This document shows, one piece after another, positions 15,145-24,226 of a stretch of DNA of 64,000 nucleotides. The position numbers were made by a program, and so were the translations under genes. This DNA is from Bacillota bacterium (GTDB taxonomy: Bacteria > Bacillota > Limnochordia > DTU080), in the NCBI GenBank assembly GCA_012838035.1, contig DUQB01000005.1, forward strand, positions 28,510 to 92,509, read 5' to 3'. Each line of letters opens with the position of its first letter. Positions within the stretch are counted from its first letter, which is position 1. The notes under the pieces are model-generated. The model worked only from the letters and a program-made list of their open reading frames with translations. It did no database searches and was not told where the DNA came from.

Positions 15145-15178
15145 TATCAGCCCAATGCCGCCGTACTGGTTTGAATTA

Positions 15179-15206
15179 TCCGCCCGCATCGCCGGGCGTT
15201 TTTTGT
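15179..15206 (+). terminator. Rho-independent terminator after queA
   Basis: CGCCCG-catcgc-CGGGCG hairpin followed by TTTTTTG. Confidence 0.7.
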
Positions 15207-15329
15207 TGCTGCAGCAGCGGAGCGCATGTGGATATTTCCCATACCTGCCGATTATAGGAGCCGGGGAAAATACACAGGGCTTCGCATCGCAGGTAACCAA
15301 CATTAAGCCGCAAAAGATAATGCGCGGAG

Positions 15330-16355
15330 GTGTTTTTCATGGGCGATGAGAAAATTAGGGTAGGCGTCATCGGCATCGGCGGACTGGCGCGCAGCGTGCA
15401 TTTGCCCGCATTGCGCGACTTGCAGGGCATAGAGTTGACGGCTGTCTGCGACAGAGTGGCGGAACGGGCGGAGTTTGCCGCTGCTGAGTACGGTTTTTCC
15501 CGCACCTACGCTCTACATGCGGAAATGTTGGCCAAAGAACGGTTGGACGCCGTTTTCGTATTAGTGGAACCGCACAACTTGTTCGAGGTGACGCGCGACT
15601 GCCTGGCCGCCGGTTTGGACGTGTTCATGGAAAAGCCGCCGGGTATTACGGCGTTTCAGGCTGATGCGTTGCGCATGGCGGCGGAGGCGGAGAGCAGAAT
15701 CCTACAGGTGGGCTTCAATCGGCGTTATATTCCCGTAGTTCTGCGGACGCTCGAGATTATGCAGGAGATTACACCTATTACGCAGGTGGAAGGATGCTTC
15801 TTTAAAAACGGGTCGGCACAGTTTTTCGGCGGCGCGGTGAGCTCGTTTGTAAGCGACTCCATCCATGCTGTCGATCTGATACGCTGGATTGCCGGCGGGA
15901 ACCCGGTAAAGGCGGCAATTGTGCAGAACCAGGTGGAGGATGTAGTGCCCAACGCCTGGAACGGAGTAATGGCCTTCGACAACGGCGTCACCGGCATCAT
16001 CAAAGCGAACTACAAGACCGGCGGGCGCATACACACGTTTGAGATCCATGGCCCGAAGGCCAGCGCATATATCAACCTGGGCTGCGGCGAGATAACCGCT
16101 CAGGCGGAAATCCTCATGCACAACGGTACTTCCATGTACTCGGCGGCATCCGGGGGCGCTACGTCACAAAATCGCCTGCTGCTCGATGGAAAAGAGCTGG
16201 TCGGAAGTGAAGCGTTTTATCGTTACTATGGGTTCTATCAGGAAGACGCGGCGTTTATAGAAAGCGTGCGCACCCGCAAACCGCCTATCGCGGATATTAG
16301 CGAAGGCGTTAAAAGTATTCGCTTGGTAGAAATGTTGTTGAACAGTGTCATTTAA
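15330..16355 (+). CDS. Gfo/Idh/MocA-family NAD(P)-dependent oxidoreductase
   Basis: N-terminal Rossmann motif IRVGVIGIGGLARSVHLPAL, 341 aa, with the typical family C-terminal alpha/beta domain. Confidence 0.75.
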   Translation: MFFMGDEKIRVGVIGIGGLARSVHLPALRDLQGIELTAVCDRVAERAEFAAAEYGFSRTYALHAEMLAKERLDAVFVLVEPHNLFEVTRDCLAAGLDVFMEKPPGITAFQADALRMAAEAESRILQVGFNRRYIPVVLRTLEIMQEITPITQVEGCFFKNGSAQFFGGAVSSFVSDSIHAVDLIRWIAGGNPVKAAIVQNQVEDVVPNAWNGVMAFDNGVTGIIKANYKTGGRIHTFEIHGPKASAYINLGCGEITAQAEILMHNGTSMYSAASGGATSQNRLLLDGKELVGSEAFYRYYGFYQEDAAFIESVRTRKPPIADISEGVKSIRLVEMLLNSVI

Positions 16356-16596
16356 GTCTTTGGTTCACTACCGTAAGAGATAACGGCACTGTTTTCTCAA
16401 ATAGGTTACCGGGGTAGCGATGTCGGCAAAAGTAATGGGCTAAACCGTGTGCATTTCCGATCTGCTTGTGATTTCCTCGCTTCTTTTAGCAAGGACAAAC
16501 GCAATCCGTTATGGAAGTCTATGAAAGAACAGCGATGTGTTACGATGCTGAACGGAACTGATCGATACCAACGTTTAACGACGGGGAGGTGTCTGC

Positions 16597-17490
16597 ATGA
16601 GATCGGTTCAGCATGTACGCAACTCGTTTCAAGCCGGCGCGCTCGACATAATGGGTTTGCGCATAGACACCATACTATATACTGAGTATCTGCCCACCTA
16701 TGTAGATAACGAACACTCCCATGAGACATGGCAGTTGTTCTACTTCCTCAATGGCACCGGCATTATCTCCATCAACGGCGTGGAAGAGACGGTTTCCGGC
16801 GGCCATGTAGCCATCGTGCGTCCGTTCGATCAGCACTTCTTTCGCAATCATGGCGACCGCGTGACCCTTTCATTAGAGATTAAATGGCACTTCAGCCACA
16901 CGTTGGACGAATTTCTCACTTCGCCCAAATGGAGCGGCATATTTCGTGACCGTTACGGCTTACGCACCTACGTCAACCAGGCCATCCAAGAATTAATGAG
17001 CCGGCGGCGCAATTGGGAGCCGATGCTACGGGCAGTCATCCTCAGCATGCTGGTTCAGGTGGATCGCGCTTTGTTGGCGGAGGTTAAGCGCATCGGCGAA
17101 AACGAGACGATCGATGCGACATATGGCTACCGACACACTATGGTGCAGAAGGCGATCAATTACGTTGTGGACCATCTACACGAAGCGCTCTCGGTGAAGG
17201 ACGTGGCGGCGTTTCTGTGCATTAGTCCGGGCTATTTGAGCGAGCTCTTCAAGAAGGAGACGGGACAGAGCTTTACCCCCTGGGTGATCGATCAAAAGAT
17301 GGCGCTCGCCCGGAAGGCATTGCTGGCCGACCCTGATAGACCTGTGGAAGATATAGCGCAGAGTATCGGATACTACGATGCACGCTACTTCAGTCGGTTG
17401 TTCAAAGTAAAAACCGGCGTCAGCCCAACCCAATTTCGCACCACTAACGTCAATCGAGACGCAATGCAAAGGAACGATCGCCTTACCTAG
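16597..17490 (+). CDS. AraC/XylS-family transcriptional regulator (N-terminal cupin-like sensor plus C-terminal HTH_AraC)
   Basis: The C-terminus carries the tandem HTH VKDVAAFLCISPGYLSELFKKETGQSFTPW...DIAQSIGYYDARYFSRLFKVKTGVSPTQFR. Confidence 0.8.
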   Translation: MRSVQHVRNSFQAGALDIMGLRIDTILYTEYLPTYVDNEHSHETWQLFYFLNGTGIISINGVEETVSGGHVAIVRPFDQHFFRNHGDRVTLSLEIKWHFSHTLDEFLTSPKWSGIFRDRYGLRTYVNQAIQELMSRRRNWEPMLRAVILSMLVQVDRALLAEVKRIGENETIDATYGYRHTMVQKAINYVVDHLHEALSVKDVAAFLCISPGYLSELFKKETGQSFTPWVIDQKMALARKALLADPDRPVEDIAQSIGYYDARYFSRLFKVKTGVSPTQFRTTNVNRDAMQRNDRLT

Positions 17491-24017: not shown

Positions 24018-24098
24018 TTCCGCAGCGGTGGTTGTCAACGTGTCTGGGACAGGAGCTGCGACGTAGAAAACCAAGTGGCGGCAGTCTTACTAATTGCA

Positions 24099-24140
24099 GG
24101 CTGTTTCCGTTCACCATTCGGACGGCAACAGCCTGTTTTT
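24099..24140 (+). terminator. Rho-independent terminator closing the accessory cluster
   Basis: GGCTGTTTCCGT...ACGGCAACAGCC, 11 of 12 bp paired, followed by TGTTTTT. Confidence 0.65.
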
Positions 24141-24184
24141 CGCTTAGTGACAACCATCCCGATGAACACTTGTGCGCGTTGCGG

Positions 24185-24213
24185 TTGATTTATTATCTTA
24201 ACACGGCATAATA
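24185..24213 (+). promoter_or_regulatory. Candidate sigma-A-type promoter for tgt
   Basis: TTGATT - 17 nt - ATAATA immediately upstream of the tgt start region. Confidence 0.4.
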
Positions 24214-24226
24214 AAAGGTGCGCTCT

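What the first reader, a model, noticed from the sequence alone, without database searches (positions are those of the whole stretch)
15150..24217. Terminator-bounded accessory cluster inserted between queA and tgt
queA and tgt are normally adjacent (ruvAB-queA-tgt-yajC). Here about 9 kb of non-housekeeping genes separate them, bracketed by a clean queA terminator (15179-15206) and another terminator just before the tgt promoter (24099-24140). The content looks like a carbohydrate- or polymer-utilisation island: a Gfo/Idh/MocA oxidoreductase, an AraC regulator with an AT-rich 400-bp control region downstream of it, a family-1 sugar-binding protein with no cognate permease or ATPase, a secreted hydrolase-like/LRR protein, and a cytoplasmic tandem hydrolase. 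No integrase, transposase or flanking repeats were seen, so the acquisition mechanism is unclear.
Basis: partly seen in the sequence, partly recalled or inferred. Interest (0 to 1): 0.5.

Follow-up and report, generated by a model that had tools for sequence, protein, structure and literature searches.

The report
Sugar-use operon inserted between queA and tgt
A 9-kb block of five glycan-processing genes has been slotted, without any visible mobility machinery, between two tRNA-modification genes that sit side by side in related bacteria. It is a real but ordinary case of lineage-specific gene gain in an uncultured Limnochordia bacterium.

Summary
Five + strand genes lie between queA (14110-15144) and tgt (to 25414), with a terminator at each end. 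They encode a Gfo/Idh/MocA oxidoreductase, an AraC regulator, a family-1 solute-binding protein (SBP), a secreted 800-aa protein and a 757-aa tandem alpha/beta-hydrolase.

The insertion reading is supported by synteny. The closest non-conspecific relative (L086, QueA 81%) is colinear with window 10800-33916 at about 76% nt. Only 15139-24172 has no counterpart; L086 has 148 unrelated bp there. Ten more distant relatives of the same cdd-era-queA lineage have queA and tgt directly adjacent. One (L087) has a different 6-kb cargo at that junction.

Composition does not mark the block: GC, GC3, codon choice and tetranucleotides match the flanks. No integrase, transposase, tRNA or flanking repeat is present.

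The "LRR protein" is a GH123-superfamily glycosidase fold fused to an internalin-like LRR. The hydrolase resembles carbohydrate esterases. The "AT-rich" spacer is only 46% GC.

The SBP plus GH123-like/LRR pair recurs without permeases in other Limnochordia. Verdict: new member of a known kind, low to moderate interest.

The parts
14110..15144 (+). queA (left flank, housekeeping). Homology with the empty-site relative L086 runs to 15138.
   Evidence: Pfam Queuosine_synth E 1e-140, NCBIfam QueA equivalog. blastn to L086 ends at 15138.
15139..24172 (+). The segment with no counterpart in L086: the inserted block, about 9.03 kb including both terminators.
   Evidence: L086 is colinear with window 10800-33916 at about 76% nt, except that this segment is replaced by 148 unrelated bp at L086 4401-4548.
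15181..15206 (+). Intrinsic terminator after queA: 6-bp GC stem plus a T-run. It lies inside the inserted segment.
   Evidence: Terminator scan; fold -11.8 kcal/mol. No equivalent hairpin with a T-run in the L086 spacer.
15339..16355 (+). Gfo/Idh/MocA NAD(P)-dependent sugar oxidoreductase. 338 aa from the ATG at 15339; the ORF opens at the GTG at 15330.
   Evidence: Pfam GFO_IDH_MocA plus C-terminal domains. All NCBIfam hits are far below their cut-offs. Best PDB match is myo-inositol 2-dehydrogenase 3cea, E 3e-20. The 338-aa form is in NCBI as HHT25709.1.
16597..17490 (+). AraC-family regulator: N-terminal cupin sensor plus two HTH motifs.
   Evidence: Pfam Cupin_2, AraC_binding, HTH_AraC, HTH_18. 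Weak similarity to AraC and RhaS equivalogs, all below cut-off.
17491..17889 (+). 399-bp spacer, the presumed regulated promoter region of the sbp operon.
   Evidence: GC 0.464. No sigma-70 consensus promoter. No repeats. Its function is inferred.
17890..19209 (+). Secreted family-1 oligosaccharide-type solute-binding protein with no adjacent permease or ATPase.
   Evidence: Pfam SBP_bac_1 E 1e-35. Best PDB match is the arabino-oligosaccharide-binding protein 6rjy, E 6e-20. SPase-I type signal peptide ...VSRVSA|AP with no lipobox, read from the translation.
19231..21723 (+). Secreted GH123-superfamily glycosidase-like domain (about 570 aa) fused to a C-terminal internalin-like LRR (about 220 aa). 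The start codon is uncertain (19231, 19237, 19258 or 19312). The signal peptide follows the Met at 19312.
   Evidence: AlphaFold model pLDDT 92.9. Foldseek against PDB: NgaCa 8k2f E 7e-21, BvGH123 5l7r E 1e-19, internalins E 1e-10. Profile against PDB: BvGH123 E 2e-13. D364-E365 is invariant in 40 homologues.
21744..24017 (+). Tandem alpha/beta-hydrolase, carbohydrate-esterase-like, with no signal peptide. Domain 2 has GLS613YGG and H730. Domain 1 has Glu243 at the nucleophile elbow.
   Evidence: Pfam DLH, Peptidase_S9, Abhydrolase_7 (weak). Model pLDDT 92.2. Foldseek: BF1801 3nuz E 1e-13, CE15 glucuronoyl esterases E 1e-12 to 1e-10. Invariant residues.
24096..24140 (+). Strong intrinsic terminator closing the inserted operon: 16-bp stem plus TTTTT.
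   Evidence: -27.9 kcal/mol, z -6.4. Unique in the window. Inside the segment absent from L086.
24173..24229 (+). Conserved tgt promoter block (-35 TTGATT 24185-24190, -10 CATAAT 24207-24212). Native, not part of the insert.
   Evidence: 84% identical to L086 4549-4605, while the neighbouring spacer is unalignable. Promoter scan.
24275..25414 (+). tgt (right flank, housekeeping), probably starting at the CTG at 24275, 6 nt after AGGAGG at 24263-24268.
   Evidence: Pfam TGT E 2e-171, NCBIfam Tgt equivalog. Start-codon argument.

Best explanation
This is a lineage-specific, non-mobile insertion of a glycan-utilisation gene cluster into the queA-tgt junction of an uncultured Limnochordia bacterium.

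Shown:
- The ancestral state in this lineage is ...ybeY-dgkA-cdd-era-queA-tgt-yajC-recJ.
- Window 15139-24172, about 9.03 kb, is the part with no counterpart in L086.
- In the common ancestor of the window species and its closest sampled relative, a short spacer carrying tgt's own promoter already separated the two genes.
- The block lies upstream of that promoter.
- A terminator sits at each end.
- The block has the host's base and codon composition.
- The closest homologues of its proteins are in other Limnochordia-type Firmicutes.

Inferred on origin: the terminators insulate the block from queA read-through and insulate tgt from the block. The DNA most likely came from a related organism or from elsewhere in the same genome. 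It probably arrived by recombination rather than through a self-mobile element.

Inferred on function:
1. The AraC-type regulator senses a sugar through its cupin domain. It activates the sbp / GH123-like-LRR / hydrolase operon from the 399-bp spacer.
2. The secreted GH123-superfamily enzyme has an invariant Asp-Glu pair. In this superfamily that pair performs substrate-assisted hydrolysis of beta-HexNAc linkages. The enzyme would trim an N-acetylhexosamine-containing glycan outside the cytoplasm. Its internalin-like LRR would hold it on a surface partner or on the substrate.
3. The secreted SBP captures the released oligosaccharide. It hands it to an ABC permease encoded elsewhere.
4. In the cytoplasm the tandem esterase-like hydrolase removes acyl or ester decorations. 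The Gfo/Idh/MocA enzyme then oxidises or reduces the sugar.
For: Insertion:
- L086 (QueA 81%, Tgt 90%, RecJ 75%) is colinear over 23 kb apart from this block.
- L001, L002, L007, L024, L030, L035, L039, L043, L180 and L183, all with era-queA adjacency, have queA-tgt gaps of about 12-75 bp.
- The tgt promoter block is conserved between the window and L086.
- The same junctions occur in independent assemblies: an NCBI 2.68-Mb contig, four Logan runs and JGI contigs up to 95 kb. The five proteins also have consecutive accessions in a second NCBI MAG.

Not self-mobile:
- No repeats, no tRNA, no mobility domains.
- No plasmid or phage DNA match.

Native composition:
- GC 0.539 against 0.540 and 0.535 in the flanks.
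- GC3 and synonymous-codon likelihood do not differ from 41 other genes, p 0.17-0.89.
- Tetranucleotide r 0.856 against 0.846-0.897 for control chunks.

Origin within the class:
- An NCBI record labels the source genome 'Limnochordia bacterium'.
- The best homologues of the hydrolase (57-61%) and of the GH123-LRR fusion (59-70%) are from Limnochordia or Firmicutes MAGs.

Functional coupling:
- L089 carries SBP (68-76%), LRR (67%), GH123-like (67%), hydrolase (61%) and a Gfo gene together.
- L094-L098 and L101 have SBP directly upstream of the GH123-like/LRR gene.

Folds. DE motif invariant. Its catalytic role in the superfamily is taken from PMC11087588.
Against: - There is no compositional signal of foreign origin, so horizontal transfer from outside the lineage is not demonstrated.
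- Only one relative at intermediate distance (L086) is available, and it is a 16.8-kb contig. Whether that organism carries the cluster elsewhere is unknown.
- The function is entirely inferred. The window protein itself does not reach the threshold of any Pfam GH123 model (PF22680 at 23.9 bits against a cut-off of 27; no DUF4091/PF13320 hit at E<=0.01). Identity to solved GH123-type enzymes is 11-16%, with TM 0.62-0.69.
- No permease or ATPase is present, so the import step lacks its machinery here.
- Outside the Limnochordia-type loci, the GH123-like domain is not linked to SBP or hydrolase genes in the 78 other metagenome loci.
- No promoter or AraC operator could be identified in the spacer.
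Confidence: 0.7

Rival explanations
1. Ancestral arrangement. The cluster was already between queA and tgt in the common ancestor, and was deleted in L086 and in the other relatives.
For: The block is compositionally native. It is fixed in every conspecific assembly long enough to show it. L086 has an unusual 400-bp spacer rather than the tight queA-tgt junction of more distant relatives.
Against: Ten outgroup loci of the same era-queA lineage have queA and tgt directly adjacent. This reading would therefore need many independent precise deletions. L086's 148-bp filler shows no remnant of the block: alignment score 29 against a maximum of 25 for shuffled controls, over only 17 columns.
Confidence: 0.08
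2. Classical horizontally acquired genomic island. It came from a distant donor on a mobile element whose integrase and repeats have since decayed, and its composition has fully ameliorated.
For: Relatives of both large proteins are most numerous in Planctomycetota, Verrucomicrobiota, Armatimonadota and related phyla. A different cargo occupies the same junction in L087, and small unrelated cargos occupy it in L025, L059, L065 and L072.
Against: The closest homologues (57-70%) are Limnochordia or Firmicutes, not PVC phyla (45-51%). There is no integrase, transposase, tRNA or repeat. There is no plasmid or phage similarity. There is no compositional deviation at all.
Confidence: 0.12
3. The cluster is not for carbohydrate use. 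It would instead be a surface or adhesion module (an internalin-like LRR protein) working with a peptidase (S9/DLH-like hydrolase).
For: NCBI names the two large proteins 'leucine-rich repeat domain-containing protein' and 'prolyl oligopeptidase family serine peptidase'. The LRR is 28-31% identical to Listeria internalins. There are weak Peptidase_S9 and DPP4 sequence hits.
Against: The 570-aa N-terminal part has the GH123-superfamily fold with an invariant DE pair. The best structural matches of the hydrolase are carbohydrate esterases, not peptidases, and it lacks the S9 beta-propeller. The neighbours are an oligosaccharide-type SBP, a sugar-type oxidoreductase and an AraC regulator.
Confidence: 0.1
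4. Assembly or binning chimera: the block is mis-joined into a housekeeping contig.
For: The source is a metagenome-assembled genome.
Against: Identical junctions at 99.9% nt appear in at least five independently assembled contigs from different runs, including a 2.68-Mb contig, and in JGI contigs.
Confidence: 0.01

Closest known systems
Gram-positive polysaccharide-utilisation loci / CAZyme gene clusters (regulator + SBP-dependent ABC importer + glycoside hydrolases and esterases)
   Same: It has a transcription factor (AraC), an oligosaccharide-type SBP, a secreted glycosidase-like enzyme, an esterase-like enzyme and a sugar oxidoreductase. All are on one strand in one terminator-bounded block.
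   Different: There are no ABC permease or ATPase genes in the cluster or within 40 kb. The glycosidase-like and esterase-like proteins belong to uncharacterised clades, so no substrate can be assigned.
GH123 / DUF4091 beta-N-acetylgalactosaminidase superfamily (BvGH123, CpNga123, NgaCa, NgaDssm; PMC11087588)
   Same: It has an N-terminal beta-sandwich plus a (beta/alpha)8 barrel. The N-terminal domain is detectable by sequence profile. An invariant Asp-Glu pair follows a barrel strand.
   Different: Identity is only 11-16%. No Pfam catalytic/DUF4091 hit is found in the window protein. It carries a C-terminal internalin-like LRR that the solved enzymes lack. Activity is unknown.
CE15 glucuronoyl esterases and Bacteroides Abhydrolase_7 esterases (BF1801 3nuz, BVU_4111 3g8y, OtCE15A)
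   Same: The second alpha/beta-hydrolase domain superposes on these enzymes (Foldseek E 1e-13 to 1e-10). It keeps a Ser in a G-x-S-x-G elbow and an invariant His.
   Different: It is a two-domain, about 750-aa architecture. The elbow is GLSYGG, not the CE15 GCSRxG. The first domain has Glu in place of the nucleophile.
Integrase-independent accessory-gene insertions ("islets") at recombination hotspots between conserved core genes
   Same: An accessory block sits between conserved, syntenic core genes. An empty site exists in a relative, and different cargo occupies the same junction in another relative. There are no mobility genes.
   Different: The composition is fully native. Only a handful of genomes of this lineage exist, so turnover at the site cannot be quantified.

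Membership tests
Classical genomic island | Integrase, recombinase or transposase at a border | tested here: not met
   Pfam and NCBIfam scans of all five proteins and their neighbours show none.
Classical genomic island | Insertion next to a tRNA/tmRNA gene, with flanking direct repeats | tested here: not met
   No tRNA in the 64-kb window. No border repeats.
Classical genomic island | Deviant base composition or codon usage | tested here: not met
   GC, GC3, codon likelihood and tetranucleotide signature all lie within the range of the rest of the window.
Classical genomic island | Present in some related genomes and absent from others at the same site | tested here: met
   Absent from L086 and from ten more distant relatives. 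Present in all conspecific contigs.
Polysaccharide-utilisation / CAZyme gene cluster | At least one carbohydrate-active enzyme | tested here: inconclusive
   GH123-superfamily fold and carbohydrate-esterase-like fold. There is no above-threshold family assignment and no activity data.
Polysaccharide-utilisation / CAZyme gene cluster | Transcription factor in the cluster | tested here: met
   AraC-family regulator with a cupin sensor domain.
Polysaccharide-utilisation / CAZyme gene cluster | Complete transporter in the cluster | tested here: not met
   Only the SBP is present. No BPD_transp_1 permease or sugar-type ATPase occurs in the window.
GH123 / DUF4091 beta-NGA superfamily | N-terminal beta-sandwich plus (beta/alpha)8 barrel architecture | tested here: met
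   Foldseek E 7e-21 to 1e-15 against 8k2f, 5l7r, 8k2j and 5fqe, TMt 0.55-0.69. Secondary structure of the model.
GH123 / DUF4091 beta-NGA superfamily | Conserved catalytic Asp-Glu (DE) motif | tested here: inconclusive
   D364-E365 ('YAIDEA') is invariant in 40 homologues and follows barrel strand 358-361. Its superposition on the catalytic DE of solved enzymes was not verified residue by residue.
GH123 / DUF4091 beta-NGA superfamily | Match to the Pfam DUF4091/GH123 catalytic model (PF13320) | tested here: not met
   No PF13320 hit at E<=0.01 in the window protein or in the 40 aligned members. Only PF22680 is found, at 23.9 bits against a cut-off of 27.
GH123 / DUF4091 beta-NGA superfamily | beta-N-acetylgalactosaminidase activity | not testable with these tools
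   This needs an enzyme assay.
CE15 glucuronoyl esterase | Alpha/beta-hydrolase fold with a Ser-His-acid triad | tested here: inconclusive
   Fold match E 1e-12, TMt 0.52-0.64. S613 and H730 are invariant and the acid residue is not assigned.
CE15 glucuronoyl esterase | G-C-S-R-x-G nucleophile motif with the substrate-binding Arg (recalled from the literature) | tested here: not met
   The elbow reads G-L-S-Y-G-G.
Listeria-type internalin | LRR domain of the internalin type | tested here: met
   Pfam LRR_4 E 3e-14. NCBIfam internalin models give E 2e-23 but score far below their cut-offs. Foldseek 28-31% identity to InlB, InlH and InlC2.
Listeria-type internalin | Cell-wall anchoring module (LPXTG, GW or similar) and N-terminal cap with no enzymatic domain | tested here: not met
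   The C-terminus ends ...KGVFIDESY with no sorting signal. The N-terminal 570 aa form a glycosidase-like domain.

The most novel reading that the evidence does not exclude
The permease-less pair 'secreted SBP + GH123-like enzyme carrying an internalin-type LRR' may be a conserved functional unit of Limnochordia-type Firmicutes. In this reading the LRR is a shared docking tag. In related loci the same LRR module (46-61% identical) ends several otherwise unrelated secreted proteins. The SBP would work as a glycan-capturing or enzyme-partner protein at the cell envelope, not as a transporter subunit. This would be an uncharacterised extracellular glycan-processing assembly. Separately, the queA-tgt junction may be a recurrent landing site for unrelated cargo across Bacillota.
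Probability: 0.12. Interest if true: 0.55.

Novelty: new member of a known kind. Interest (0 to 1): 0.25.

Why it matters
It is a clean, well-bounded example of how accessory metabolism enters a conserved housekeeping gene string without any mobile-element machinery. The block is terminator-insulated and lies upstream of a retained native promoter. That is useful for annotating an uncultured Limnochordia lineage from anaerobic digesters, and it is a caution that composition-based island finders would miss it.

The cargo also points to two large protein families that remain uncharacterised experimentally. One is a GH123-related clade with an invariant DE pair. The other is a tandem hydrolase of about 750 aa, widespread in Planctomycetota and relatives. 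The conserved SBP-enzyme pairing is also worth biochemical follow-up.

It does not change any general picture.

Tried and rejected
- Composition tests (windowed GC, GC3, synonymous-codon likelihood against 41 other genes, tetranucleotide correlation against control chunks) gave no foreign signal.
- A search for direct or inverted repeats across 14900-24400 found only chance-level short matches.
- The right terminator is not a repeated element.
- Rfam found no RNA family anywhere in the window, so there is no riboswitch in the spacers or the tgt leader.
- There is no tRNA.
- There are no PADLOC defence hits.
- There is no DNA similarity to plasmids or phages.
- Sensitive alignment of L086's 148-bp filler to the block gave nothing beyond shuffled controls.
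- A search for AraC operator-like repeats or a consensus promoter in the 399-bp spacer found nothing.
- There are no paralogues of the island proteins elsewhere in the window.
- I tried to assign L089, the other full copy of the module, to the organism of L180 from the same sample. GC (0.614 against 0.562) and tetranucleotide r (0.58) do not support that.
- A literature search for queA-tgt insertion hotspots gave nothing relevant.
- The genome-contig scan found no species representative closer than 66% QueA identity. The intermediate relative came only from the protein search and look-up.
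Full report
**What is in the sequence**

Between queA (14110-15144) and tgt (ORF 24218-25414) lie five + strand genes:
- a Gfo/Idh/MocA oxidoreductase (15330/15339-16355);
- an AraC-family regulator with a cupin sensor domain (16597-17490);
- a family-1 solute-binding protein, SBP (17890-19209);
- an 800-830-aa protein with C-terminal leucine-rich repeats (19231/19312-21723);
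- a 757-aa protein with two alpha/beta-hydrolase domains (21744-24017).

The last three genes are separated by only 21-22 bp and look like one operon.

A short GC hairpin with a T-run follows queA at 15181-15206. Its energy alone is unremarkable. A strong 16-bp hairpin plus TTTTT sits at 24096-24140 (-27.9 kcal/mol, z -6.4) and occurs only once in the window. A sigma-70-like promoter for tgt follows at 24185-24212.

- The genes upstream of queA are yabP-yqfD-phoH-(7TM-HD)-ybeY-dgkA-cdd-era, not ruvAB.
- The 399-bp spacer after araC is 46% GC against 54% overall, so it is not strikingly AT-rich.
- No sugar ABC permease or ATPase exists anywhere in the 64 kb.

**Source**

QueA of the window is found, residue for residue, on a 2.68-Mb contig of GCA_050951525.1 and on several independently assembled Logan contigs. 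All are 99.9% identical in DNA. All that are long enough carry the same five genes between queA and tgt.

JGI contigs up to 95 kb, and a second NCBI MAG with consecutive protein accessions HHT25708-HHT25713, show the same order. One NCBI record labels the genome 'Limnochordia bacterium'. An assembly artefact is excluded.

**Is it an insertion?**

A scan of one genome per species found no relative closer than 66% QueA identity. The large protein database did hold one QueA at 81% (P0002).

Its contig, L086, is colinear with window 10800-33916 at about 76% nucleotide identity. Cdd is 79% identical, Era 85%, QueA 81%, Tgt 90%, YajC 86% and RecJ 75%. There is a single break. Window 15139-24172 has no counterpart, and L086 has 148 unrelated bases instead.

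The 57 bp that hold the tgt promoter (24173-24229) are 84% identical between the two, although the adjoining spacer cannot be aligned. Both terminators lie inside the segment that L086 lacks.

Ten more distant members of the same era-queA lineage have queA and tgt directly adjacent. They are L001, L002, L007, L024, L030, L035, L039, L043, L180 and L183.

Of the 80 species representatives, 56 have tgt within 10 kb downstream of queA. In 52 of those the gap is 300 bp or less.

Gain in the window lineage is therefore far more parsimonious than repeated precise loss.

One 66% relative (L087) has a different 6-kb cargo at the same junction: a 633-aa unknown protein, SatD, DUF3307 and an ABC-2 exporter. 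Four other Bacillota have small unrelated genes there:
- an MCP-like protein;
- a penicillin-binding protein;
- a beta-helix lipoprotein;
- a RelB/YafQ-type toxin-antitoxin pair.

The junction is thus occasionally used by other cargo.

**How it got there**

Nothing marks a mobile element:
- no integrase or transposase;
- no tRNA;
- no flanking repeats;
- no similarity to plasmids or phages;
- no defence-system hits.

The block is also compositionally indistinguishable from its host:
- GC is 0.539 against 0.540 and 0.535 for the 9 kb on either side.
- GC3 and synonymous-codon likelihood do not differ from 41 other genes.
- Tetranucleotide correlation with the rest of the window is 0.856, against 0.846-0.897 for control chunks.

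The closest homologues of the two large proteins are from Limnochordia or Firmicutes metagenome bins. They are 57-61% identical for the hydrolase and 59-70% for the full-length GH123-LRR fusion. Members from Planctomycetota, Verrucomicrobiota, Armatimonadota and similar phyla are far more numerous but more distant, at 40-51%.

My inference is that the block came from a related organism, or from another place in the same genome, by recombination. With 64 kb of this genome and one short contig of the nearest relative, these two routes cannot be separated.

**What the cargo is**

*The 800-aa protein.* It was modelled with 40 homologues (pLDDT 92.9).
- Its first 570 residues or so match the GH123-type beta-N-acetylgalactosaminidase superfamily. 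Examples are NgaCa 8k2f at E 7e-21 and BvGH123 5l7r at E 1e-19, with TM 0.62-0.69 and 11-16% identity.
- A sequence profile reaches BvGH123 at E 2e-13 through the N-terminal beta-sandwich.
- An Asp-Glu pair (D364-E365 in the 803-aa numbering) is invariant in the alignment and follows a barrel strand. In this superfamily a DE motif performs substrate-assisted catalysis (PMC11087588).
- The window protein does not reach threshold for any Pfam GH123 model and has no DUF4091 hit. I treat it as a distant, uncharacterised relative, not a GH123 member.
- Its last 220 residues are an internalin-type LRR (28-31% identity to InlB, InlH and InlC2) with no cell-wall sorting signal.

*The 757-aa protein.* Its model has pLDDT 92.2.
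- It is a fusion of two alpha/beta-hydrolase domains. It is full-length conserved in thousands of metagenomic proteins.
- The best structural matches are Bacteroides esterases BF1801 and BVU_4111 and CE15 glucuronoyl esterases (E 1e-13 to 1e-10).
- Domain 2 keeps GLS613YGG and H730. Domain 1 has an invariant Glu at the nucleophile position.
- The CE15 GCSRxG motif is absent.

*The smaller proteins.*
- The SBP resembles oligosaccharide-binding proteins (AbnE 6rjy, E 6e-20). It has an SPase-I type signal peptide rather than a lipobox.
- The oxidoreductase is a generic sugar-type Gfo/Idh/MocA enzyme.

**Is the gene set a functional unit?**

- L089 has 61% GC and comes from a sample that also holds the window species. 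It carries SBP (68-76%), the LRR module as a separate ORF (67%), the GH123-like domain (67%), the hydrolase (61%) and a different Gfo gene, all in a row.
- In the Limnochordia loci L094-L098 and L101, an SBP (54-55%) lies directly upstream of the GH123-like/LRR gene. It is followed by further LRR-tagged secreted proteins, and again there are no permeases.
- In the other 78 metagenome loci holding the GH123-like domain, neither the SBP nor the hydrolase is linked to it.
- In other Limnochordia the hydrolase sits alone in a housekeeping context.

The conserved core is therefore SBP plus GH123-like/LRR. The hydrolase, oxidoreductase and regulator are looser associates.

**Most likely mechanism (inferred)**

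1. AraC senses a sugar and activates the sbp operon.
2. The secreted GH123-like enzyme, positioned by its LRR, trims a probably HexNAc-containing glycan.
3. The SBP captures the product for an ABC permease encoded elsewhere.
4. The cytoplasmic tandem esterase and the oxidoreductase process it further.
5. The two terminators insulate the block from queA and insulate tgt from the block. tgt keeps its own conserved promoter.

**Verdict**

This is a real, lineage-specific accessory insertion of a known general kind. It is compositionally native, and no mobility machinery is visible. Its cargo belongs to uncharacterised clades of known superfamilies.

Interest is low to moderate. The most novel reading still open is that the permease-less SBP plus LRR-tagged enzyme pair is an uncharacterised envelope-associated glycan-processing assembly.

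Noticed in passing
window 24263-24277; L086 4690-4715: tgt probably starts at a CTG codon (24275), 6 nt after a perfect AGGAGG. In the relative L086 an in-frame TAA lies 10 codons upstream of the homologous CTG. No ATG, GTG or TTG occurs there before the conserved 'VFMPVGT', about 37 residues into the conserved N-terminus. More distant relatives have ATG or TTG at the aligned position. Public gene calls either extend the gene (window, 395-398 aa) or truncate it (L086, 346 aa).
   Followed up: partly
window 21744-24017 (residues 240-245 and 611-616): In the widespread tandem-hydrolase family of about 750 aa, the first alpha/beta-hydrolase domain has an invariant Glu at the nucleophile elbow (GYGE243GG). 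The second has a normal Ser elbow (GLS613YGG) and an invariant His730. It is unclear whether domain 1 is catalytic.
   Followed up: partly
L094 9698-13030 and 19370-20344; L097 3757-5740; L089 1263-1916: The same internalin-like LRR module (46-67% identical to the window's) ends several different secreted proteins in Limnochordia loci: GH123-like proteins and CarboxypepD_reg-domain proteins. In L089 it is a separate ORF placed upstream of the GH123-like ORF. It behaves like a shuffled, shared tag.
   Followed up: partly
L087 8920-14879: A 66%-QueA relative carries a different 6-kb cargo between queA and tgt: a 633-aa protein with no Pfam hit, SatD, DUF3307 and an ABC-2 type exporter on the opposite strand. 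L025, L059, L065 and L072 carry small unrelated genes at the same junction.
   Followed up: partly
window 48526-51321: An FtsA/PilM/MreB-like ATPase gene (419 aa) is followed 4 bp later by a 510-aa protein with a weak Baseplate_J-like match. The pair is wedged between alaS and the YceG/MltG gene in an otherwise housekeeping string.
   Followed up: no
window 17890-17980: The SBP has an SPase-I type signal peptide (…VSRVSA|AP) and no lipobox cysteine. This is unusual for a monoderm Firmicute. It fits the reported diderm envelope of Limnochordia, which I recall from the literature and did not test here.
   Followed up: no
window 13165-15144 and related loci L001, L086, L180, L183: In this lineage queA-tgt-yajC follows directly after cdd-era rather than ruvAB. 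The yqfD-phoH-ybeY-dgkA-cdd-era string is thereby joined to queA-tgt-yajC-recJ-apt-relA-dtd. This is a lineage-wide synteny marker.
   Followed up: partly
window 296-1738 (- strand): A 480-aa ORF with no Pfam match lies next to a PAS histidine kinase / OmpR-type response-regulator pair at the left end of the window.
   Followed up: no
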